64,000 bases of DNA from Escherichia coli (lineage in GTDB: Bacteria > Pseudomonadota > Gammaproteobacteria > Enterobacterales > Enterobacteriaceae), in the NCBI RefSeq assembly GCF_013122565.1, contig NZ_CP053258.1, one strand, 5' to 3'. The translations under genes and the position numbers were made by a program. Positions 1,083 to 12,928 of the stretch are shown here, one piece after another. Under the pieces are notes generated by a model. The model was not told the origin of the DNA, made no database searches, and saw nothing but the letters and a program-made list of their open reading frames with translations. The first letter of the stretch is position 1, and every line of letters starts with the position of its first letter.

Positions 1083-3341
1083 ATGAGCGATATGGCAGAG
1101 CGCCTTGCGCTACATGAATTTACGGAAAACGCCTACTTAAACTACTCCATGTACGTGATCATGGACCGTGCGTTGCCGTTTATTGGTGATGGTCTGAAAC
1201 CTGTTCAGCGCCGCATTGTGTATGCGATGTCTGAACTGGGCCTGAATGCCAGCGCCAAATTTAAAAAATCGGCCCGTACCGTCGGTGACGTACTGGGTAA
1301 ATACCATCCGCACGGCGATAGCGCCTGTTATGAAGCGATGGTCCTGATGGCGCAGCCGTTCTCTTACCGTTATCCGCTGGTTGATGGTCAGGGGAACTGG
1401 GGCGCGCCGGACGATCCGAAATCGTTCGCGGCAATGCGTTACACCGAATCCCGGTTGTCGAAATATTCCGAGCTGCTATTGAGCGAGTTGGGGCAGGGGA
1501 CGGCTGACTGGGTGCCAAACTTCGACGGCACTTTGCAGGAGCCGAAAATGCTACCTGCCCGTCTGCCAAACATTTTGCTTAACGGCACCACCGGTATTGC
1601 CGTCGGCATGGCGACCGATATTCCACCGCATAACCTGCGTGAAGTGGCTCAGGCGGCAATCGCATTAATCGACCAGCCGAAAACCACGCTCGATCAGCTG
1701 CTGGATATCGTGCAGGGGCCGGATTATCCGACTGAAGCGGAAATTATCACTTCGCGCGCCGAGATCCGTAAAATCTACGAGAACGGACGTGGTTCAGTGC
1801 GTATGCGCGCGGTGTGGAAGAAAGAAGATGGCGCGGTGGTTATCAGCGCATTGCCGCATCAGGTTTCAGGTGCGCGCGTACTGGAGCAAATTGCTGCGCA
1901 AATGCGCAACAAAAAGCTGCCGATGGTTGACGATCTGCGCGATGAATCTGACCACGAGAACCCGACCCGTCTGGTGATTGTGCCGCGTTCCAACCGCGTG
2001 GATATGGATCAGGTGATGAACCACCTCTTCGCTACCACCGATCTGGAAAAGAGCTATCGCATTAACCTCAATATGATCGGTCTGGATGGTCGTCCGGCGG
2101 TGAAAAACCTGCTGGAAATTCTCTCCGAATGGCTGGTGTTCCGCCGCGATACCGTGCGCCGCCGACTGAACTATCATCTGGAGAAAGTCCTCAAGCGCCT
2201 GCATATCCTCGAAGGTTTGCTGGTGGCGTTTCTCAATATCGACGAAGTGATTGAGATCATTCGTAATGAAGATGAACCGAAACCGGCGCTGATGTCGCGG
2301 TTTGGCCTTACGGAAACCCAGGCGGAAGCGATCCTCGAACTGAAACTGCGTCATCTCGCCAAACTGGAAGAGATGAAGATTCGCGGTGAGCAGAGTGAGC
2401 TGGAAAAAGAGCGCGACCAGTTGCAGGGCATTTTGGCTTCCGAGCGTAAAATGAATAACCTGCTGAAGAAAGAACTGCAGGCAGACGCGCAAGCCTACGG
2501 TGACGATCGTCGTTCGCCGTTGCAGGAACGCGAAGAAGCGAAAGCGATGAGCGAGCACGACATGCTGCCGTCTGAACCTGTCACCATTGTGCTGTCGCAG
2601 ATGGGCTGGGTACGCAGCGCTAAAGGCCATGATATCGACGCGCCGGGCCTGAATTATAAAGCGGGTGATAGCTTCAAAGCGGCGGTGAAAGGTAAGAGCA
2701 ACCAACCGGTAGTGTTTGTTGATTCCACCGGTCGTAGCTATGCCATTGACCCGATTACGCTGCCGTCGGCGCGTGGTCAGGGCGAACCGCTCACCGGCAA
2801 ATTAACGTTGCCGCCTGGGGCGACCGTTGACCATATGCTGATGGAAAGCGACGATCAGAAACTGCTGATGGCTTCCGATGCGGGTTACGGTTTCGTCTGC
2901 ACCTTTAACGATCTGGTGGCGCGTAACCGTGCAGGTAAGGCTTTGATCACCTTACCGGAAAATGCCCATGTTATGCCGCCGGTGGTGATTGAAGATGCTT
3001 CCGATATGCTGCTGGCAATCACTCAGGCAGGCCGTATGTTGATGTTCCCGGTAAGTGATCTGCCGCAGCTGTCGAAGGGCAAAGGCAACAAGATTATCAA
3101 CATTCCATCGGCAGAAGCCGCGCGTGGCGAGGATGGTCTGGCGCAACTGTACGTTCTGCCGCCGCAAAGCACGCTGACCATTCATGTTGGGAAACGCAAA
3201 ATTAAACTGCGTCCGGAAGAGCTACAGAAAGTCACTGGCGAACGTGGACGCCGCGGTACGTTGATGCGCGGTTTGCAGCGTATCGATCGTGTTGAGATCG
3301 ACTCTCCTCGCCGTGCCAGCAGCGGTGATAGCGAAGAGTAA
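1083..3341 (+). CDS. parC: DNA topoisomerase IV subunit A
   Basis: 752 aa; N-terminus [32 protein letters not shown]; GyrA/ParC family motifs. Confidence 0.95.
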
Positions 3342-3382
3342 TATGCCGGGGCGGGCGCTGTTTCCTCCCGCTTGCAAGGAAC

Positions 3383-3411
3383 GCCGGATGAAACGTTAAG
3401 TCGTCATCCGG
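3383..3411. repeat. REP-like palindromic hairpin downstream of parC
   Basis: gccggatg ... catccggc inverted repeat. Confidence 0.4.
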
Positions 3412-3574
3412 CAGCGTATTCAACCCCCGGAAACGATAAAAATTCCCTTGAAACCGTTGTTTATTCATGCGTTGCGATTAACAATACGCTTTTCCAGAGA
3501 GCGGCTTTTAACAATGCCCTAACCTGATTTCAGGTGACGTACAATGCCAGTCTCTCAGACCTTCAGAGGGTGTT

Positions 3575-4312
3575 ATGCTATATATCTTTCGTCTTATTAT
3601 TACCGTGATTTACAGCATCTTAGTCTGTGTATTCGGCTCCATTTACTGCCTTTTCAGCCCGCGTAACCCGAAACATGTGGCCACCTTTGGGCATATGTTT
3701 GGCCGTCTTGCGCCGCTGTTCGGCCTGAAAGTTGAGTGCCGCAAACCTGCAGACGCTGAAAGCTACGGCAATGCTATCTATATCGCTAACCACCAGAACA
3801 ACTATGACATGGTGACAGCATCGAACATTGTGCAACCGCCGACGGTGACGGTAGGTAAAAAGAGCTTGCTGTGGATCCCCTTCTTCGGGCAGTTGTACTG
3901 GTTAACCGGCAACTTATTGATCGACAGAAACAATCGCACTAAAGCTCACGGCACTATTGCGGAAGTCGTGAATCACTTCAAAAAACGCCGTATTTCCATC
4001 TGGATGTTCCCGGAAGGAACCCGCAGTCGTGGTCGCGGCCTGCTACCGTTCAAAACCGGGGCATTTCACGCGGCAATTGCGGCAGGCGTCCCGATTATTC
4101 CCGTGTGCGTCTCTACAACTTCGAATAAGATTAATCTTAATCGACTGCACAACGGTCTGGTGATTGTCGAAATGCTGCCGCCAGTTGATGTCAGTCAGTA
4201 TGGCAAAGATCAGGTTCGTGAGCTGGCTGCCCATTGTCGTTCGATAATGGAACAAAAAATCGCCGAGCTCGATAAAGAAGTCGCAGAGCGCGAAGCCGCC
4301 GGAAAAGTTTAA
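3575..4312 (+). CDS. plsC: 1-acyl-sn-glycerol-3-phosphate acyltransferase
   Basis: 245 aa; HxxxxD acyltransferase motif (NHQNNYD); FPEGTR motif. Confidence 0.93.
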   Translation: MLYIFRLIITVIYSILVCVFGSIYCLFSPRNPKHVATFGHMFGRLAPLFGLKVECRKPADAESYGNAIYIANHQNNYDMVTASNIVQPPTVTVGKKSLLWIPFFGQLYWLTGNLLIDRNNRTKAHGTIAEVVNHFKKRRISIWMFPEGTRSRGRGLLPFKTGAFHAAIAAGVPIIPVCVSTTSNKINLNRLHNGLVIVEMLPPVDVSQYGKDQVRELAAHCRSIMEQKIAELDKEVAEREAAGKV

Positions 4313-4386
4313 GTCGGCAATCTGTATTTTTGCGGGGAACACTTTCCTGCACGGTATTACTTTAGCCAGTTTTACATGGAGCAAAT

Positions 4387-5799
4387 ATGTCACTCAGTCG
4401 GCGTCAGTTCATTCAGGCATCGGGGATTGCACTTTGTGCAGGCGCTGTTCCCCTGAAGGCCAGCGCAGCCGGGCAACAGCAACCGCTACCCGTTCCGCCG
4501 CTGCTTGAATCTCGCCGTGGGCAACCGCTGTTTATGACTGTACAACGCGCGCACTGGTCATTTACGCCAGGGACACGCGCGTCGGTCTGGGGAATCAATG
4601 GTCGTTACCTGGGGCCGACTATCCGCGTCTGGAAGGGCGACGATGTTAAGCTTATTTACAGCAACCGGCTGACAGAAAATGTCTCAATGACGGTGGCCGG
4701 GCTACAGGTACCTGGCCCGCTGATGGGCGGGCCGGCACGGATGATGTCGCCAAACGCTGACTGGGCACCCGTACTGCCTATTCGCCAGAACGCAGCTACT
4801 CTGTGGTATCACGCCAATACTCCCAACCGCACGGCTCAGCAGGTCTATAACGGCCTTGCCGGAATGTGGCTGGTGGAAGATGAAGTCAGCAAGTCGCTGC
4901 CTATCCCCAACCATTATGGTGTGGATGATTTTCCGGTCATTATCCAGGATAAACGGCTGGATAACTTTGGTACGCCAGAATACAACGAACCGGGAAGCGG
5001 CGGCTTTGTTGGTGATACACTACTGGTTAACGGTGTGCAAAGCCCGTACGTTGAAGTCTCGCGTGGCTGGGTGCGCTTGCGACTGCTGAACGCGTCGAAC
5101 TCTCGTCGCTATCAACTACAGATGAGCGATGGTCGCCCGTTACATGTGATTTCTGGCGATCAGGGATTCCTGCCTGCTCCTGTATCGGTGAAGCAACTTT
5201 CGCTGGCACCGGGCGAGCGCCGCGAGATTCTGGTGGATATGAGCAACGGTGATGAAGTGTCGATCACCTGTGGCGAAGCGGCGAGCATTGTTGATCGTAT
5301 TCGTGGCTTCTTTGAGCCATCCAGCATTCTGGTTTCTACCCTGGTGCTAACGCTGCGCCCAACCGGCCTTCTGCCGCTGGTCACAGACAGTCTTCCTATG
5401 CGCTTGCTGCCAACTGAAATCATGGCCGGTTCGCCGATTCGCAGTCGCGATATCAGTCTGGGTGATGACCCGGGTATTAATGGACAACTGTGGGACGTCA
5501 ACCGTATTGATGTCACCGCGCAGCAAGGAACGTGGGAACGCTGGACGGTACGCGCGGACGAGCCGCAAGCGTTCCATATTGAAGGTGTGATGTTCCAGAT
5601 CCGTAACGTGAATGGCGCGATGCCGTTCCCGGAAGACAGAGGCTGGAAAGATACCGTTTGGGTTGACGGACAAGTGGAGCTGCTTGTTTATTTCGGTCAG
5701 CCTTCCTGGGCGCACTTCCCGTTCTACTTCAACAGTCAGACGCTGGAAATGGCGGACCGTGGCTCGATAGGGCAACTGTTAGTCAATCCGGTACCGTAA
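4387..5799 (+). CDS. ftsP: Cell division protein FtsP (SufI), multicopper oxidase fold, Tat signal
   Basis: 470 aa; twin-arginine signal MSLSRRQFIQASGIALCAGA. Confidence 0.93.
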   Translation: MSLSRRQFIQASGIALCAGAVPLKASAAGQQQPLPVPPLLESRRGQPLFMTVQRAHWSFTPGTRASVWGINGRYLGPTIRVWKGDDVKLIYSNRLTENVSMTVAGLQVPGPLMGGPARMMSPNADWAPVLPIRQNAATLWYHANTPNRTAQQVYNGLAGMWLVEDEVSKSLPIPNHYGVDDFPVIIQDKRLDNFGTPEYNEPGSGGFVGDTLLVNGVQSPYVEVSRGWVRLRLLNASNSRRYQLQMSDGRPLHVISGDQGFLPAPVSVKQLSLAPGERREILVDMSNGDEVSITCGEAASIVDRIRGFFEPSSILVSTLVLTLRPTGLLPLVTDSLPMRLLPTEIMAGSPIRSRDISLGDDPGINGQLWDVNRIDVTAQQGTWERWTVRADEPQAFHIEGVMFQIRNVNGAMPFPEDRGWKDTVWVDGQVELLVYFGQPSWAHFPFYFNSQTLEMADRGSIGQLLVNPVP

Positions 5800-5849
5800 T
5801 GGACCAATTCATCGCTCCACTGAGTGGTGGGGCGATACAAGGATGAAAC

Positions 5850-7274
5850 ATGGATGGCATGGGATGGATGATTATTTTGGTACTTCCCTTTCTTTGGATG
5901 GGGTATGGACTGGCGTTGTTAATCATAACGGGGTGCGCTTTTGAATCTAAGGGGATTCGTCGCGTTCTGCTATGGGGTGTTGCGCCTCAGTTTATTATTC
6001 TTTGTATTGCGACCTTATTGCTTTACTGGACTAACTCTCGGTTAATTTATGTTTTTGTCTTTTTTCAGCCAGTTTTATGTATCACCACGGCAATTTTTTT
6101 ATTTGCTGGTAAAAAAACACAATATTCCAGATTGCTGTTTACTCTGTCTCATGTGATTTTTCTCGCTGGCGTTTTATATCAGGGGCATAGGGAAAATCTG
6201 CAATACATAATTAATAACGACTGGAAGGAATATAAAATAACGCGTTTATTTGAGCAAGTGCAGGACAATGGGGCGCATGCGCTGAATAACGATGTAACTT
6301 GTTCAGAATTAATGCAACTACTCACACTGGCAGCGGAACGTAATGACGTCAAAGAAGAGACGTTACGTACTCTTATTGCAAAGAAAGTATCGCCATTTCT
6401 GACAATGTCAGATAACTGTACGGGTGAGAATTCAGTAGAGACTTATTCTGTATATACTACGCCTTTTATGGCAGCTATTCAAAATCATAATATACATTCT
6501 GTCCGTTTTTTTAGTCAATTGCTTATGGGAAACTCATCAAAAGCAAAAAATAATCGTGACATTGTGCGCCGGGCAAACCCATTGATCGAAGTGTATAAAT
6601 ATAGTCATGGTTCTAAAAAACAACGTAAGTCAGGGTTAGAAATAAGTAAGCAATTAATGGCCATTATGCCAGAGCTATTAACAGATGCCGTCTGGCGTGC
6701 CGTGCTCAATGTATATGATGCCGATGCAGCACGATGGTTCTGGCGTAAGCAACCACCAGAAAATCGGTTGTATCGCTTAAAGGCTATGGCATTAATACCA
6801 CAAACGGATGCGCTATTGGCGGAGATTCGACAAACTCCAGAGGTACTGAATATCTCGTCTGAGGGAGACCTGAATGAAGAGGAGTTTCTCCATTTCTTAA
6901 TTTATGGAGGAGATACCGCTGTAATACATGCACTGGTTGAAAAAGGAATAGTTAACTGGCAGCACCTTATGAACATTGAGGGGTTTGATAAGGACCCCTT
7001 AATTTGGGCTATTTCAAAACTGGGAGAAAATGACAATGACCGGGAGGTTTTGACATTAATTATTCATGATATTAATGCGCAAAATGCACTGCCGGAGGAT
7101 CGCATAGCCAAATATTTAACGCGGACGGGATCAATGGGCGAGATTTTTTTAAAGGCGGGCGTACATTGTGATAAGTTATATGCGGCAATTGAGTCCGACA
7201 AAAAGCGAAATAATGGTATGTATAGTCAAAACGCCAGGGAAGAAGTGGATCGAGTATGTACGCCCGCAAAATAG
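5850..7274 (+). CDS. Hypothetical membrane protein, N-terminal ~4 TM helices plus ankyrin-repeat-like C-terminal region (paralogue A)
   Basis: 474 aa ORF; AAGGA RBS ~10 nt upstream; hydrophobic N-terminus; ankyrin-like motifs (TPFMAAIQNHNIHSVRFF, GDTAVIHALVEKG); AT-rich codon usage. Confidence 0.6.
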   Translation: MDGMGWMIILVLPFLWMGYGLALLIITGCAFESKGIRRVLLWGVAPQFIILCIATLLLYWTNSRLIYVFVFFQPVLCITTAIFLFAGKKTQYSRLLFTLSHVIFLAGVLYQGHRENLQYIINNDWKEYKITRLFEQVQDNGAHALNNDVTCSELMQLLTLAAERNDVKEETLRTLIAKKVSPFLTMSDNCTGENSVETYSVYTTPFMAAIQNHNIHSVRFFSQLLMGNSSKAKNNRDIVRRANPLIEVYKYSHGSKKQRKSGLEISKQLMAIMPELLTDAVWRAVLNVYDADAARWFWRKQPPENRLYRLKAMALIPQTDALLAEIRQTPEVLNISSEGDLNEEEFLHFLIYGGDTAVIHALVEKGIVNWQHLMNIEGFDKDPLIWAISKLGENDNDREVLTLIIHDINAQNALPEDRIAKYLTRTGSMGEIFLKAGVHCDKLYAAIESDKKRNNGMYSQNAREEVDRVCTPAK

Positions 7275-7319
7275 GTGCAGTTTGGGGCGGTTAAGGAATA
7301 AAAAATAAAGGACTAAGCC

Positions 7320-8729
7320 ATGCGTAATGATGAATTTTTTCACCATTTTACTTTGACACTGTTTATGTTGGGTGGCTATCTACTGACTCTGTTCATCGTT
7401 ATCGTCCTTTCCTTTTTTAGCCCATTATGCCGAAAAATGGTCTTCCATGGCGCATTGCCGCAATTGATGATGGCAATAACGGTGTCGCTCGGTTTATATT
7501 ATCTGGAACGATACTCTTTTGCGGTATGGGCCTTACTGGATTCTTTTTGGATATTATTCCCCTGCCTGTTATTGATCATAGTGATAAATAAATGGTTAAA
7601 GCGTTCCCTTGTATGGATGAGTGCTTGTCATATTATGTGCTTGCTGTTGTTACTCTGGCAGGTGCAGCCCACGTTATTTAAAATCAGCTTTTATCACCAA
7701 CAATTAAGTCACCTGGCTCAGGCAGAGCAGGAAAATTTCCGCACACTGGATGCGATTCACGATACGCAACGTCTGGAAGCGATGTTACTGGTAGCGTTGA
7801 AATCCCCGGAAAATCAAACCTCTGAAAATGCCTTTCGCTATCTGTCAGGGCGAATCTCACCATTTGCTATACCTTCCATTGGCGATGAACAGTATTCTAC
7901 CCGCACTTTTTTTACGATTGCGTTGGAACATTACAACGCCCGCGCCATCCGCGCGTTTAGCCGCTTTCTGCAAGGAAATTCCTCAAAAGCGCAGGAATAT
8001 CGTGCGATTGTTCATCAAAAAAATCCACTGCAGCAGATGTACCGGGGAATAAGTTTGCCAATTCGTTTTAGTGAAGAAGAGATCGCCCGTCACATTATTG
8101 CCGCTCGCGAGATAAGCCTCACCTTACTGCCCCTGATGCCAGAATTATTAAACGAAGAGGCGTATGCAAATGTCATTGATGCTTATGACAGCGCAACGCT
8201 GAAGGCTTTTTGGCAGTTCCAGCTGCCGCCTACGCCGGTTTTGCGCCTGGAAGCGATGTCGGTAATTCCCATGACAGCGGCACTGGTTCAACAGGTGAGA
8301 GAGTCACCAAAACGGCTTGAACTGGAAGATAAAAGTGGCAGGACAGTACTAACTTACATCGTGCGCTTTGGAAATATTGCCGCAGTACAGGCACTGATTG
8401 ACGCTAATCTGATCGACTGGCAACGGCTTCGCCAATCGACAGAAAGGTCAACACCATTATTACTGGCGACCTGGCGACAAAAATACGACGATGATCATGT
8501 AATCTTCCCATTGATTTTAAAGGACATGCTGGCAAAAAATGCGCCACCCTCAGCAGAGGAAATAATGAACTGCCTTAAGGATGGTATGACCGCAGATGAT
8601 TTTTTCTCTGCCGGAATGAGCAACACGCAATTCTGTTCTGCGATTGAACAAAGCCTCCAGGCGAAAACGTCAGTATTACCGGCGAATCGATTACGCCATC
8701 TGCAATCCTCGCTGTGTGCAAAGCTGTAA
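7320..8729 (+). CDS. Hypothetical membrane protein, paralogue of 5850..7274 (paralogue B)
   Basis: 469 aa; AAGGA RBS; shares motifs with upstream ORF (FSRFLQGNSSKAQ vs FSQLLMGNSSKAK; MPELLNEEAYANVIDAYD vs MPELLTDAVWRAVLNVYD). Confidence 0.6.
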   Translation: MRNDEFFHHFTLTLFMLGGYLLTLFIVIVLSFFSPLCRKMVFHGALPQLMMAITVSLGLYYLERYSFAVWALLDSFWILFPCLLLIIVINKWLKRSLVWMSACHIMCLLLLLWQVQPTLFKISFYHQQLSHLAQAEQENFRTLDAIHDTQRLEAMLLVALKSPENQTSENAFRYLSGRISPFAIPSIGDEQYSTRTFFTIALEHYNARAIRAFSRFLQGNSSKAQEYRAIVHQKNPLQQMYRGISLPIRFSEEEIARHIIAAREISLTLLPLMPELLNEEAYANVIDAYDSATLKAFWQFQLPPTPVLRLEAMSVIPMTAALVQQVRESPKRLELEDKSGRTVLTYIVRFGNIAAVQALIDANLIDWQRLRQSTERSTPLLLATWRQKYDDDHVIFPLILKDMLAKNAPPSAEEIMNCLKDGMTADDFFSAGMSNTQFCSAIEQSLQAKTSVLPANRLRHLQSSLCAKL

Positions 8730-8844
8730 CCAACCGGAAGTTAAGTCATCCGCTGAAAACATCGCATTAACTTTTCGATTTCTCTTTCGTTCCGGCTTAT
8801 AATCCCCGGCCTTTGATTATTTTTTTATCATTTCTGGAAGCAAA

Positions 8845-11064
8845 ATGAGCTCTATCTCCCTGATCCAACCGGATCGCGACCTGTTCTCCTGGCCGCAGTA
8901 CTGGGCCGCCTGTTTTGGACCGGCACCGTTTTTGCCGATGTCTCGTGAAGAGATGGATCAACTTGGCTGGGATAGCTGCGACATCATTTTGGTTACTGGC
9001 GACGCGTATGTCGATCACCCAAGCTTCGGGATGGCGATTTGCGGTCGTATGCTGGAAGCGCAGGGCTTTCGCGTCGGGATCATCGCCCAGCCGGACTGGA
9101 GCAGCAAAGACGACTTTATGCGTCTGGGTAAACCGAATCTGTTTTTCGGCGTTACTGCTGGCAACATGGATTCGATGATCAACCGCTATACCGCCGATCG
9201 CCGTTTACGTCATGACGATGCCTACACGCCGGATAACGTCGCGGGTAAGCGACCGGATCGCGCCACACTGGTTTATACCCAGCGTTGTAAAGAGGCGTGG
9301 AAAGATGTGCCGGTGATCCTCGGCGGTATTGAGGCTAGTCTGCGCCGTACCGCGCATTATGATTACTGGTCCGATACCGTGCGCCGTTCCGTGCTGGTGG
9401 ATTCCAAAGCCGACATGCTGATGTTCGGTAACGGTGAGCGTCCGTTGGTGGAGGTGGCGCACCGTCTGGCGATGGGCGAGCCGATTAGTGAAATCCGCGA
9501 TGTGCGTAATACTGCGATTATCGTAAAAGAGGCGTTGCCAGGCTGGAGCGGTGTGGATTCCACCCGTCTCGATACCCCAGGGAAAATCGACCCGATCCCG
9601 CATCCGTATGGCGAAGATCTGCCGTGCGCGGATAACAAACCTGTTGCGCCGAAAAAGCAGGAAGCGAAAGCCGTAACCGTGCAGCCGCCGCGCCCGAAAC
9701 CGTGGGAAAAAACCTACGTATTGCTGCCTTCTTTCGAGAAAGTGAAGGGCGATAAAGTGCTGTACGCCCATGCTTCGCGCATTCTGCACCACGAAACCAA
9801 CCCTGGCTGCGCCCGCGCATTGATGCAAAAACACGGCGACCGCTATGTGTGGATCAACCCGCCTGCTATCCCGCTTTCTACCGAAGAGATGGACAGCGTT
9901 TTTGCGCTGCCGTACAAGCGCGTGCCGCATCCGGCCTATGGCAATGCCCGTATTCCGGCTTACGAAATGATCCGTTTCTCGGTCAACATTATGCGCGGCT
10001 GCTTTGGCGGCTGCTCTTTCTGTTCTATCACTGAGCACGAAGGGCGCATTATTCAGAGCCGTTCGGAAGATTCGATCATTAATGAGATTGAAGCGATCCG
10101 CGACACCGTTCCAGGTTTTACGGGCGTAATTTCCGATCTCGGTGGGCCAACTGCCAACATGTATATGTTGCGCTGCAAATCGCCACGCGCTGAGCAAACC
10201 TGCCGCCGTTTGTCCTGCGTTTACCCGGATATTTGTCCGCATATGGACACGAACCACGAACCAACGATCAACCTCTATCGCCGTGCGCGTGATCTGAAAG
10301 GCATTAAAAAGATCCTGATTGCCTCTGGTGTGCGTTATGACATCGCCGTAGAAGATCCGCGCTATATCAAAGAACTGGCGACCCATCACGTCGGCGGTTA
10401 TCTGAAGATTGCCCCGGAACATACCGAAGAAGGGCCGTTATCGAAGATGATGAAGCCGGGCATGGGCAGCTATGACCGCTTTAAAGAGCTGTTCGATACC
10501 TACTCGAAACAGGCAGGTAAAGAGCAGTATCTGATCCCCTATTTCATCTCCGCGCACCCGGGTACGCGTGATGAAGATATGGTGAATCTGGCGCTGTGGC
10601 TGAAAAAGCATCGTTTCCGTCTCGACCAGGTACAGAACTTCTACCCATCGCCGCTGGCTAACTCGACCACCATGTATTACACCGGGAAAAACCCGCTGGC
10701 GAAGATTGGTTATAAGAGTGAAGACGTCTTCGTACCGAAGGGCGACAAGCAGCGTCGTTTGCATAAAGCGTTGTTGCGTTACCACGATCCGGCAAACTGG
10801 CCGTTAATCCGCCAGGCGCTGGAAGCGATGGGCAAAAAGCATCTGATTGGCAGCCGTCGCGATTGCTTAGTGCCTGCGCCAACCATTGAAGAGATGCGTG
10901 AAGCTCGTCGCCAGAACCGCAATACCCGTCCGGCGTTGACGAAACATACGCCGATGGCGACCCAGCGTCAGACGCCTGCTACGGCAAAAAAAGCGTCGTC
11001 TACGCAATCTCGTCCGGTGAATGCTGGTGCGAAGAAACGCCCTAAAGCGGCGGTTGGACGTTAA
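8845..11064 (+). CDS. ygiQ: Radical SAM superfamily protein YgiQ
   Basis: 739 aa; CxxxCxxC-type motif ([13 protein letters not shown]); position next to ftsP. Confidence 0.9.
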
Positions 11065-11073
11065 ATTCGCTGT

Positions 11074-11099
11074 TCCCGGTAGCAGAATTGCTACCGGGG
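11074..11099. terminator. Hairpin downstream of ygiQ
   Basis: tcccggtagca-gaat-tgctaccggga inverted repeat between convergent genes. Confidence 0.4.
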
Positions 11100-11134
11100 A
11101 TATTACTTCAGAATCTATCTCATTAGGCATTTAT

Positions 11135-11491
11135 TTATATGCCGAAATGTATCATGTGTTTATTTTCTCTGATAGCTTTTTGTATTACTTCTGATAAAGA
11201 AAGAAGTAAAGGATCGTGCTGGAATTTTGTATCCGATACAACAATATGAAGAAACTGATTTAATGAATCTGGTGGGATAATGGTGACTCCGTAGCGAGCA
11301 AGCGCATAACCTGGACGATTTAAACTATGATAGAAGGTTTTTATTGTCTGAAGTTGTTCCCACCATTCATCAATATAAATGTCATCATCAATATAAACGC
11401 AATTATATTTTTCAGGTTCATAGTGACCATAATCTTTATCAGTATCAATTTCATCAATAATACCAAATTCGGTTTTAATCATAATGACCAT
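11135..11491 (-). CDS. Hypothetical small acidic protein
   Basis: 118 aa ORF in strongly AT-rich DNA; no recognisable domain; same strand and immediately downstream of the YqhG-like gene. Confidence 0.45.
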   Translation of the reverse strand: MVIMIKTEFGIIDEIDTDKDYGHYEPEKYNCVYIDDDIYIDEWWEQLQTIKTFYHSLNRPGYALARYGVTIIPPDSLNQFLHIVVSDTKFQHDPLLLSLSEVIQKAIRENKHMIHFGI

Positions 11492-11673
11492 GCTTTTTAA
11501 TTGTTATGCAGAAAAATGCCAGGAAAATGATTTAAATTGAATTTTCTGGGGTGATTTGTAATCTTGCTTGTCATATAGATGAGCCATCCAACGAGGTTGT
11601 GCAACATTTAATGAGGGAGACTGGACCAGAACAAGGCTGGGGATTAATATAGAAATGATTAACAATAGTGGCT

Positions 11674-12597
11674 TCATTTTGTCGTTGTTTCCATATTATT
11701 TTTAGCAGATTCCGCCTGTAATTTTTTGATTTCTTGTTCTCTGTGGCGTGCAAACTCTTTACGGGTCGTGACGCGTTCATACAAAGTAATATCGGTAATC
11801 CCCCCACTCCGCATGCCCAAATGACCTCGTATATCCATATCAAATGTTCCAGCTATCCGGACATAATCGCCATTTAGCTGACGAGCACGAGTTAAGGTCA
11901 CGACTGGGTTTGGGAAATCAATATCCAACCACACGCTATCACTTTGAACAAAATTTTCCCAGGATTCTTTATTTAAATATAAGGCGTTGCCTTCAAACTC
12001 AATATTGCCGACACCTTCGACAACCACCTTTTGCAAATGGTATTTTTCTGGCTGCGCAAGTAGTGCCGTCATTGATATCGAATGAGAAAAATGATCGCTT
12101 GAGGGTTCATTAATTACAGCTCTGCGTTTCATTCGCGTATCTTCACGTATTTCTGCCCGTAGACTGTTAGGCATTTCATTACCATCATCGATGTCTTCTA
12201 TTAGCCAGCGATGATTATCATTTTCACGAACCAGCATCAGCCCCAGTAACCGGTGGACATTGGTGCGATTTTGTTTGATAACCAACTGCAACAGTACATG
12301 CGTTCGGCCGCCATTTAGGTGTGTGCTTTGGATTATTTCTGCAGAAACGAAAGTATCATCAACACAGCGACACAAAAGATTATTATTCAGCCAGGGTGTC
12401 ATTTTGCCAGGAGTAGCGCTCATATTACTTCGCAAATCGAGACTGAATTCATCGGTTATTGGTATATCGCCATTACTGGTCAATGGTTGGTACAAACGTT
12501 CTATCGCTTCATTAATCGATTCTTTGCACAACACGTTTCCGCTGAAGCCACAGAACAGCAGAATAAAAAAACAGGTGTGCCAGCGTCGCATAATCAT
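11674..12597 (-). CDS. Secreted protein, distant YqhG (DUF3828-like) paralogue
   Basis: 307 aa; N-terminal signal peptide (FFILLFCGFSGNVLC); weak shared motifs with YqhG (CxC-D, RWLIEDI vs RWVIDDI). Confidence 0.55.
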   Translation of the reverse strand: MIMRRWHTCFFILLFCGFSGNVLCKESINEAIERLYQPLTSNGDIPITDEFSLDLRSNMSATPGKMTPWLNNNLLCRCVDDTFVSAEIIQSTHLNGGRTHVLLQLVIKQNRTNVHRLLGLMLVRENDNHRWLIEDIDDGNEMPNSLRAEIREDTRMKRRAVINEPSSDHFSHSISMTALLAQPEKYHLQKVVVEGVGNIEFEGNALYLNKESWENFVQSDSVWLDIDFPNPVVTLTRARQLNGDYVRIAGTFDMDIRGHLGMRSGGITDITLYERVTTRKEFARHREQEIKKLQAESAKNNMETTTK

Positions 12598-12636
12598 GCC
12601 CTTATGTTTGGCTTTTTCTTAGCAAACAGCCTCTAA

Positions 12637-12669
12637 CCCGGCAACTGACATGCTGCCGGGGATTTTTTT
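12637..12669 (+). terminator. Intrinsic-terminator-like hairpin plus T-run
   Basis: cccggca...tgccggg stem followed by TTTTTTT on the + strand. Confidence 0.45.
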
Positions 12670-12670
12670 A

Positions 12671-12928
12671 TCATTCTGCGTACATACGCATGCAGCGCAG
12701 GCAATCAAAATAGTCCTGTGCATCAAGACGCGTATTGGCTCTGTTAGCTTCGGATTTGGCAGCATAGATTTGTGGGCGTAGTGCTTTCATATCCTGCTCA
12801 AGCCGGGCGATTTTGGCATTTAATGTTTGTACATTGCTCGCCAGTTGATTGACCTTTTGCTCATTGACGCAGCCACTGAGCAAGCAGGTTGCCAGAACAA
12901 CAGCTCCCACGGTGAAAATCGTTTTCAT
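12671..12928 (-). CDS. yqhH: Lpp-like lipoprotein YqhH
   Basis: 85 aa; lipobox LLSGC; coiled-coil Lpp-like sequence. Confidence 0.9.

What the first reader, a model, noticed from the sequence alone, without database searches (positions are those of the whole stretch)
5850..8729. Tandem pair of paralogous AT-rich genes for membrane-anchored ankyrin-like proteins inserted between ftsP and ygiQ
Two adjacent same-strand ORFs (474 and 469 aa), each with a good AAGGA ribosome-binding site, encode proteins with about four N-terminal transmembrane helices followed by a domain containing ankyrin-repeat-like motifs. They are clearly paralogous to each other. The DNA is markedly more AT-rich than the flanking core genes. 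By my recollection ftsP and ygiQ are adjacent in K-12. Ankyrin repeats are uncommon in enterobacterial chromosomal proteins and usually mediate protein-protein interaction, so function (effector, immunity or regulatory module) is open.
Basis: partly seen in the sequence, partly recalled or inferred. Interest (0 to 1): 0.7.

Follow-up and report, generated by a model that had tools for sequence, protein, structure and literature searches.

The report
Relic periplasmic ankyrin-like membrane gene pair
Two neighbouring E. coli genes encode uncharacterised inner-membrane proteins with an ankyrin-type binding domain that probably faces the periplasm; they are an old, fast-evolving Enterobacteriaceae locus that almost all E. 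coli have lost, and their function is unknown.

Summary
There are two intact same-strand ORFs, A (5850-7274, 474 aa) and B (7320-8729, 469 aa). Each has an AAGGA ribosome-binding site. They are 26% identical (E 3e-45), low in GC (0.41 and 0.46, against 0.50-0.57 in the flanks) and lie between ftsP and ygiQ. Those two genes are adjacent in K-12, and only 13 of 5426 complete E. coli genomes carry the pair.

"Inserted" is not supported. Homologues sit directly downstream of ftsP, and before ygiQ wherever the contig reaches that far, in E. whittamii, E. albertii, Escherichia sp. MOD1-EC7003, Salmonella salamae, Superficieibacter, Pseudocitrobacter and two unnamed Enterobacteriaceae. The A/B duplication predates those genera. 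There are no mobile-element signatures and no plasmid or phage homologues. The pair is best read as an ancestral locus lost by most E. coli, with B often broken in carriers.

The family has about 20 clusters, all in Enterobacteriaceae, and is unstudied. It evolves 15- to 100-fold faster than its flanks, yet dN/dS is about 0.2. Charge bias and a conserved C-terminal cysteine pair place the solenoid in the periplasm.

My preferred function is a membrane-tethered periplasmic binding or neutralising protein, like the ankyrin immunity proteins Tli and Bd3460. That is inference only.

The parts
5810..5837 (+). Stable hairpin just after the ftsP stop codon, with no U tract. It ends a few nt before the ribosome-binding site of gene A.
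   Evidence: RNA fold gives -19.2 kcal/mol, z = -3.8. In empty-site genomes a different hairpin (-23.5 kcal/mol) followed by a U-rich tract occupies this place. The consensus scan found no terminator here, so read-through from ftsP is possible but untested.
5850..7274 (+). Gene A, 474 aa (identical to WP_171460355.1). It has a 4-TM module (about residues 5-111), a long stalk helix, and an ankyrin-type alpha-solenoid (about 150-435) ending in a two-helix cap with Cys440 and Cys470.
7320..8729 (+). Gene B, 469 aa (identical to WP_250880415.1). It is a paralogue of A with the same architecture, and Cys439 and Cys466 in the C-terminal cap.
8730..8844 (+). Spacer between B and ygiQ. From about 8773 (ACTTTTCGATTTC...) it is the same sequence as the ftsP-ygiQ spacer of empty-site genomes, so this marks the right-hand boundary of the presence/absence polymorphism.
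   Evidence: Alignment of both window junctions with the O157:H7 empty site. About 2.95 kb in the window replaces about 35 bp (the hairpin) in empty-site genomes.

Best explanation
A and B are two intact members of an uncharacterised protein family restricted to Enterobacteriaceae. Each protein has an N-terminal four-helix membrane module with a nearly invariant Pro-Gln in TM2. This is followed by a long stalk helix and a roughly 300-residue ankyrin-type alpha-solenoid. The solenoid is predicted to lie in the periplasm (N-out/C-out topology) and to be closed by a disulfide between two conserved C-terminal cysteines.

The position between ftsP and ygiQ is the family's ancestral chromosomal home, and the tandem A/B duplication is older than the genera Escherichia and Salmonella. 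Most E. coli carry a deletion allele. A few lineages keep the pair, or regained it by homologous exchange with sister Escherichia lineages, and in many carriers B is already broken.

Shown here: the anatomy, the fold class, the distribution, the synteny, the evolutionary rates and the absence of mobile-element features.

Inferred: the periplasmic location, and the function. I propose a membrane-tethered periplasmic protein-binding module. The family evolves very fast, duplicates and decays in place, and is dispensable. The role I therefore think most likely is binding or neutralising variable proteins that act in the periplasm, such as toxins delivered by competitors. That is the role of the periplasmic ankyrin-repeat immunity proteins Tli (Enterobacter cloacae) and Bd3460 (Bdellovibrio). 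I put this specific role at about 0.3.

For: Topology: across 29 family members K+R/D+E is 73/7 in loop 1 and 66/0 in loop 3, against 15/38 in the N-tail and 10/13 in loop 2. One cysteine column is conserved in 26 of 26 sequences and its partner in 25 of 26. Both cysteines lie in the last two antiparallel helices. A Pseudocitrobacter member has a duplicated 4-TM module, which keeps the parity.

Family size and range: about 20 full-length clusters among 1.84 billion representative proteins, all from Enterobacteriaceae. There is no Pfam, NCBIfam, PADLOC or PHROG family.

Ancestral locus: the same ftsP-adjacent site is used in eight lineages. The family tree has an A clade (Escherichia plus S. 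salamae) and a B clade (Escherichia, Superficieibacter and the second Pseudocitrobacter gene). Identity of A/B falls in step with identity of the flanks: FtsP is 100, 98, 93, 90, 89 and 85% identical while A/B are 76, 70, 37, 50, 30 and 25%. Against E. albertii, dS of B (0.86) equals dS of ftsP (0.81).

Selection: dN/dS is 0.18-0.34 in all comparisons, against 0.00-0.06 for the flanks.

Loss and decay: the pair is in 13 of 5426 genomes. B has a 520-bp deletion in 4 of those, is truncated in 1 and carries IS1 plus a frameshift in 1. Truncated B forms of 268, 230 and 333 aa are common in draft genomes.

Not mobile.

Against: No toxin or effector gene lies next to any of about 14 family loci examined. 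The only hint is a Barstar-domain gene beside the E. cancerogenus copy.

There is no sequence similarity to Tli. The structural similarity to Tli or Bd3460 is no better than to eukaryotic ankyrin proteins. There is no PADLOC hit.

Gene-wide dN/dS of about 0.2 shows constraint, not an obvious arms race. Variable sites are spread along the protein rather than clustered.

The conserved Pro-Gln in TM2 suggests the membrane module does more than anchor the protein, and the immunity idea does not explain it.

The periplasmic topology is predicted, not measured.

Within Escherichia, the island and its flanks have discordant dS values. Against E. whittamii A is 0.18 and B 0.28, while the flanks are 0.35-0.56. 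Against MOD1-EC7003 B is 0.74, while the flanks are about 0.2. History within the genus therefore includes allele exchange and is not purely vertical.
Confidence: 0.55

Rival explanations
1. Recent horizontal insertion. On this view a foreign AT-rich cassette landed between ftsP and ygiQ in a few E. coli lineages.
For: The pair is rare (13 of 5426 genomes) and low in GC. dS of A and B between E. coli and E. whittamii (0.18 and 0.28) is lower than that of the flanks (0.35-0.56). That is compatible with transfer of the allele between Escherichia lineages after they split.
Against: The same gene family sits at the same site in at least five genera, and its divergence tracks that of the flanks. 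There are no repeats, tRNA, integrase or IS at the borders and no plasmid or phage homologues. Low GC is shared by family members in all 11 genomes tested. E. coli-type flanks abut the island directly, with 0-3 differences per 200 nt from K-12. Any transfer was therefore homologous allele replacement within the genus, not insertion of foreign DNA.
Confidence: 0.1
2. An accessory envelope or cell-division factor working with FtsP. On this view the periplasmic solenoid tethers or modulates the periplasmic divisome protein FtsP or another divisome component.
For: In every syntenic lineage the gene is immediately downstream of ftsP and co-oriented with it. The spacers are often short: 50 nt here, 33 nt in L017, 54 nt in L023. 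No recognisable terminator or promoter lies between ftsP and A. Both proteins are predicted or known to act in the periplasm (FtsP location is from established knowledge).
Against: FtsP is 85-100% conserved while A/B are 23-76% identical, which is hard to reconcile with a specific FtsP interface. The pair is absent from 99.8% of E. coli without any change in ftsP. Family copies at other sites in Atlantibacter, E. cancerogenus, S. enterica and two MAGs are not next to ftsP. The whole parC-plsC-ftsP-ygiQ block is syntenic anyway, so adjacency may simply be inherited.
Confidence: 0.15
3. Non-functional remnants. On this view the ORFs are open by chance in this strain and the locus is simply decaying.
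For: B is disrupted in 6 of 13 complete carrier genomes, and truncated forms are common. The split genes in S. Typhi fit the same pattern. One paralogue has been lost in several lineages.
Against: Both ORFs are full length here, in E. whittamii and in several E. coli strains. dN/dS is about 0.2 over divergences up to dS > 2. Scaffold residues, the Pro-Gln motif and the Cys pair are conserved among sequences only 15-50% identical. The deeper alignment gives a confident model (pLDDT 89.6).
Confidence: 0.1
4. Reversed topology. On this view the solenoid is cytoplasmic and acts as a membrane-tethered regulator or scaffold, as in most bacterial ankyrin proteins studied.
For: No experimental topology is available. 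Most characterised ankyrin domains act in the cytosol.
Against: The charge bias is strong and consistent: K+R/D+E is 73/7 in loop 1 and 66/0 in loop 3, while the N-tail is acidic. A Cys pair is conserved in 25-26 of 26 sequences. The duplicated TM module preserves parity.
Confidence: 0.1

Closest known systems
Tli, the ankyrin-repeat immunity lipoprotein of the Enterobacter cloacae T6SS phospholipase Tle (Tle6 family; PDB 7ubz; PMC11470151)
   Different: Tli has six repeats, a lipoprotein signal peptide and an adjacent tle gene. A and B have a 4-TM module with conserved polar residues, a longer solenoid and no neighbouring effector. No sequence similarity was detectable.
Bd3460, the ankyrin-type self-protection protein of Bdellovibrio bacteriovorus (PDB 5cea)
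   Different: It is small and soluble (193 residues in the PDB chain) and, from my own knowledge, is encoded next to its target endopeptidase gene. It has no TM module and no sequence relationship to A/B.
AnkB of Pseudomonas aeruginosa (PDB 9iq8, ankyrin-like protein AnkB)
   Different: It is short (127 residues in the PDB chain) and is linked to the catalase gene katB (from my own knowledge). No catalase gene lies near A/B in any locus examined.
Canonical eukaryotic ankyrin-repeat domains (KANK1/2, IkB-alpha, ankyrin-B, DARPins)
   Different: Only one or two repeats are recognisable by sequence. No member reaches E <= 0.001 against a Pfam ankyrin model. The domain is fused to a bacterial 4-TM module and predicted to be extracytoplasmic.

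Membership tests
Ankyrin-repeat proteins (Pfam Ank families) | Significant match to a Pfam ankyrin HMM | tested here: not met
   Ank_2 gives E = 0.0015 for B and 0.14 for A. Of 29 family members, 0 reach E <= 0.001 and 6 reach E <= 0.1.
Ankyrin-repeat proteins (Pfam Ank families) | Stacked helix-turn-helix repeats of about 33 residues forming an alpha-solenoid | tested here: met
Ankyrin-repeat proteins (Pfam Ank families) | Profile-level sequence similarity to bona fide ankyrin repeats | tested here: met
   The family profile matches the KANK ankyrin domains in the PDB at E = 2.8e-4. It also matches long multi-repeat proteins with up to 30 stretches each at profile positions 326-364.
T6SS ankyrin immunity proteins (Tli of Tle6 lipases) | Encoded next to the cognate lipase effector gene | tested here: not met
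   No lipase or other effector gene is adjacent in the window or in about 14 related loci.
T6SS ankyrin immunity proteins (Tli of Tle6 lipases) | Lipoprotein signal peptide as the periplasmic anchor | tested here: not met
   The N-terminus is a 4-TM module without a lipobox. Tli is a lipoprotein.
T6SS ankyrin immunity proteins (Tli of Tle6 lipases) | Sequence homology to Tli | tested here: not met
T6SS ankyrin immunity proteins (Tli of Tle6 lipases) | Protects against a periplasm-acting toxin | not testable with these tools
   This needs competition and intoxication assays.
Horizontally acquired genomic island | Mobility signatures at the borders (integrase, tRNA, direct repeats, IS) or homologues on plasmids or phages | tested here: not met
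   No flanking repeats, no RNA gene and no integrase or IS ORF. tblastn of A and B against 72,556 plasmids and 50,697 phages gave no match.
Horizontally acquired genomic island | Absent from the homologous site in related species | tested here: not met
   Family members are present directly downstream of ftsP in E. whittamii, E. albertii, Escherichia sp. MOD1-EC7003, S. salamae, Superficieibacter, Pseudocitrobacter, and MAGs L017 and L023.
Anti-phage defence systems (PADLOC) | Match to a known defence-protein model | tested here: not met
   There were 0 families at E <= 1 for both proteins.

The most novel reading that the evidence does not exclude
The ftsP-ygiQ locus may encode an unrecognised class of toxin-independent ("orphan" or innate) periplasmic immunity proteins. 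These would be membrane-tethered ankyrin solenoids kept as ancient, deeply diverged presence/absence alleles and exchanged among Escherichia lineages, much as O-antigen loci are. They would protect against periplasm-acting toxins of competitors without any linked effector gene. The conserved Pro-Gln and His in the 4-TM module might couple binding to a membrane event.
Probability: 0.2. Interest if true: 0.7.

Novelty: new variant of a known kind. Interest (0 to 1): 0.45.

Why it matters
Ankyrin repeats are rare in enterobacterial chromosomes, and those studied are mostly secreted effectors or small immunity proteins. This is a whole family with no Pfam or NCBIfam model and, in four literature searches, no paper describing it. 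It joins a conserved 4-TM module to a large solenoid that is probably periplasmic.

The family has sat beside the cell-division gene ftsP since before Escherichia and Salmonella diverged. It evolves 15- to 100-fold faster than its neighbours and is being lost repeatedly. If it binds foreign periplasmic toxins, it would be an example of immunity inherited without a cognate toxin. If it binds envelope or divisome proteins, it would be a lineage-specific modulator of the envelope.

The practical lesson is that low GC and rarity within one species do not show recent insertion. Here they mark an old locus in decay.

Tried and rejected
- Family libraries: Pfam, NCBIfam, PADLOC and PHROGs scans of A and B gave no significant family.
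- Foldseek against AFDB50 returned only uncharacterised enterobacterial relatives and then generic repeat proteins.
The narrower alignment returned only 3 loci that were already known, so it added little.
- The consensus promoter/terminator scan found nothing convincing around the genes.
- Rfam and repeat scans were negative.
- A weak Wzy_C hit (E = 0.0085) on TM2-TM4 of A was seen in 1 of 29 members only, so I treated it as chance.
- I looked for clustering of variable sites that might mark a hypervariable binding face. Variation is spread along both proteins and the TM module behaves oppositely in A and B, so this was not informative.
- I looked for a deletion scar or direct repeats at the empty site. 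The left junction is a different hairpin with only vague resemblance, so this was inconclusive.
- Literature searches for ftsP with ygiQ, for periplasmic or TM ankyrin proteins in E. coli, and for orphan immunity with ankyrin found no paper on this family.
- I considered and rejected a prophage or plasmid origin, a known defence system, and an FtsP-specific partner as the leading idea. The reasons are given under the rival explanations.
Full report
**Observation.** The window carries parC (1083-3341), plsC (3575-4312) and ftsP (4387-5799). Two ORFs follow on the same strand: A (5850-7274, 474 aa) and B (7320-8729, 469 aa). ygiQ comes next (8845-11064). Both ORFs have AAGGA 6-7 nt before the ATG. 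A and B align over 460 residues at 26% identity, E = 3e-45. GC/GC3 is 0.407/0.379 for A and 0.457/0.481 for B, against 0.565/0.592 for ftsP and 0.551/0.624 for ygiQ. In K-12 MG1655 ftsP and ygiQ are neighbours with a 110-bp spacer. Megablast and blastn both find the 2.9-kb segment in 13 of 5426 complete E. coli genomes, always at this site and at about 97% identity. The exact proteins are on record from E. coli as WP_171460355.1 and WP_250880415.1.

At sequence level Pfam is sub-threshold: Ank_2 gives E = 0.0015 for B and 0.14 for A, and none of 29 family members reaches E <= 0.001. A family profile does hit the KANK ankyrin domains in the PDB at E = 2.8e-4. In the exhaustive search, long multi-ankyrin proteins match profile positions 326-364 up to 30 times each. 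A second segment conserved across the family, PFxxAxxxxNxxAVRxFS, resembles the ankyrin consensus. "Ankyrin-like" is therefore right at fold and profile level. The family is not covered by any Pfam, NCBIfam, PADLOC or PHROG model.

**Topology (inferred).** I counted charges over 29 family members. K+R/D+E is 73/7 in the TM1-TM2 loop and 66/0 in the TM3-TM4 loop. It is 15/38 in the short N-tail and 10/13 in the TM2-TM3 loop. By the positive-inside rule this gives N-out/C-out, which places the solenoid in the periplasm. Two cysteines are conserved: the last one in 26 of 26 sequences and its partner, about 30 residues upstream, in 25 of 26. They lie near the start of the second-to-last helix and at the end of the last helix, which are antiparallel in both models. 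That fits a periplasmic disulfide staple. A Pseudocitrobacter member carries a duplicated 4-TM module, which preserves the parity. Pro47-Gln48 in TM2 is about 94% conserved, and a His in TM4 is common. The membrane module may therefore be more than an anchor.

**Family and distribution.** The word-indexed search of 5.8 billion proteins found only Escherichia relatives and one from Superficieibacter. The exhaustive profile search of 1.84 billion representatives found about 20 full-length or near-full-length clusters. Cluster look-ups and Foldseek against AFDB50 place these in the following taxa:
- E. coli, E. whittamii, E. albertii and Escherichia sp. MOD1-EC7003
- Salmonella enterica, including subsp. 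salamae and split genes in S. Typhi
- Superficieibacter, Pseudocitrobacter, Atlantibacter hermannii and Enterobacter cancerogenus
- Phytobacter, and Klebsiella grimontii and K. pasteurii

All are annotated as hypothetical proteins. tblastn of A and B against plasmid and phage collections found nothing. Four literature searches found no paper on the family.

**Not an insertion.** Family genes lie directly downstream of ftsP in eight other lineages:
- E. whittamii, with A and B both intact
- E. albertii, with B only
- Escherichia sp. MOD1-EC7003, with B only
- S. salamae, with an A-type gene only
- Superficieibacter, with a B-type gene
- Pseudocitrobacter, with a tandem pair
- two unnamed Enterobacteriaceae, L017 and L023

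ygiQ lies downstream in each of these wherever the contig extends far enough. The E. albertii type-strain contig and L023 end too early to show it. A neighbour-joining tree groups Escherichia A with the S. salamae gene. It groups Escherichia B with the Superficieibacter gene and the second Pseudocitrobacter gene, so the duplication predates these genera.

Identity of A/B falls in step with that of the flanks but much faster. FtsP identity is 100, 98, 93, 90, 89 and 85%, against 76, 70, 37, 50, 30 and 25% for A/B. Against E. albertii, dS of B (0.86) matches dS of ftsP (0.81). The island borders carry no repeats, tRNA, IS or integrase. Compared with the empty site, about 2.95 kb replaces a 35-bp hairpin. 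Family genes are 1-16 GC points below a neighbouring gene in all 11 other genomes tested. Low GC is thus a family trait rather than a sign of recent import.

Within Escherichia the history is not purely vertical. Against E. whittamii, dS of A and B (0.18 and 0.28) is below that of the flanks (0.35-0.56). Against MOD1-EC7003, dS of B (0.74) far exceeds the flanks (about 0.2). E. coli-type flanks abut the island directly. This looks like old, diverged alleles exchanged by homologous recombination. The rare E. coli carriers either retained the allele or regained it in that way.

**Selection and decay.** dN/dS is 0.18-0.34 for A and B in every comparison, from dS 0.05 to above 2. The flanking genes give 0.00-0.06. 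The genes are therefore constrained, but dN is 15- to 100-fold higher than in ftsP. Among the 13 complete E. coli carriers, A is annotated at full length in all five I inspected individually. In EC2641 it is extended to 478 aa, with an IS1 immediately downstream. B has a 520-bp deletion in 4 genomes, is truncated in LD91-1, and is frameshifted beside the IS1 in EC2641. Truncated B forms of 268, 230 and 333 aa are common in draft genomes, as are 352-aa forms in E. albertii. Several lineages have kept only A or only B. This is birth-and-death evolution at a fixed site.

Several things count against this. None of about 14 loci has a neighbouring effector gene; the only hint is a Barstar-domain gene beside the E. 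cancerogenus copy. There is no specific similarity to Tli. Variable sites do not cluster. The conserved TM residues remain unexplained.

The main functional rival is an FtsP- or divisome-linked accessory factor, at about 0.15. It rests on the constant position downstream of ftsP, with short spacers and no clear terminator. It is weakened by the contrast between a highly conserved FtsP and highly diverged A/B. It is also weakened by family copies elsewhere in the chromosome. A purely non-functional relic is unlikely for this strain, given intact ORFs and dN/dS of about 0.2.

**Verdict.** This is a real, correctly delimited gene pair of an unstudied family restricted to Enterobacteriaceae. The fold class is known (ankyrin). 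The architecture (4-TM module plus a large solenoid that is probably periplasmic), the fixed ftsP-adjacent home and the evolutionary behaviour have not been described. I rate it a new variant of a known kind, of moderate interest, with function open.

Noticed in passing
window 11065-12900: A second AT-rich accessory segment (GC 0.34-0.44) lies right after ygiQ. It holds two minus-strand ORFs, 11135..11491 (118 aa) and 11674..12597 (307 aa, with a signal-like N-terminus), where K-12 has yqhH. Only 121 of 5426 complete E. coli genomes cover at least 80% of positions 11000-11750. There was no NCBIfam hit. The N-terminal 135 residues or so of the 307-aa protein are a distant paralogue of the adjacent YqhG (DUF3828): 20% identity, E = 2e-5.
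   Followed up: partly
L005 8447-8818; L003 9433-9795; L004 7444-7842; L017 7429-8412: Short ORFs of 120-132 aa, and one of 327 aa, lie next to the family genes in Pseudocitrobacter, Superficieibacter, E. albertii and a MAG. The 327-aa ORF in L017 is a truncated family copy. The profile search also hit stand-alone proteins of 119-146 aa over the 4-TM part only. I did not test whether the neighbouring short ORFs are such fragments. Together these hints suggest arrays of up to three copies that decay in place.
   Followed up: partly
L004 9447-16911 (E. albertii): In E. albertii the ftsP-ygiQ interval also holds a TRAP transporter (DctPQM), three dehydrogenase genes and a GntR regulator downstream of the B homologue. 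In Pseudocitrobacter (L005 3428-4900) it holds a LemA gene and an M48 peptidase gene upstream of the pair. The interval is therefore a variable region in several genera.
   Followed up: no
L016 7425-8460 (Enterobacter cancerogenus): The E. cancerogenus family copy sits at a different chromosomal site. Next to it, on the opposite strand, are a Barstar-domain gene (140 aa) and two small ORFs (78 and 86 aa). This is the only immunity-like neighbour seen in any locus.
   Followed up: no
L006/L007 (Salmonella enterica) 3221-9140: One S. enterica clade of the family (P0024, 466 aa, often split into 130 + 310 aa) lies away from ftsP. An IS1 transposase gene lies just downstream in both loci, an ISL3 transposase gene upstream in L006 only, and a weak DUF4034 gene downstream. 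This suggests a copy that was relocated by IS activity.
   Followed up: no
window 8845-11064 (ygiQ): ygiQ of the window is mosaic relative to other E. coli. Differences per 200 nt from K-12 range from 0 to 16 along the gene, peaking at gene positions 601-800. dS against strain LD91-1 is 0.133, higher than for parC (0.02) or ftsP (0.05). This suggests past recombination in this gene.
   Followed up: partly
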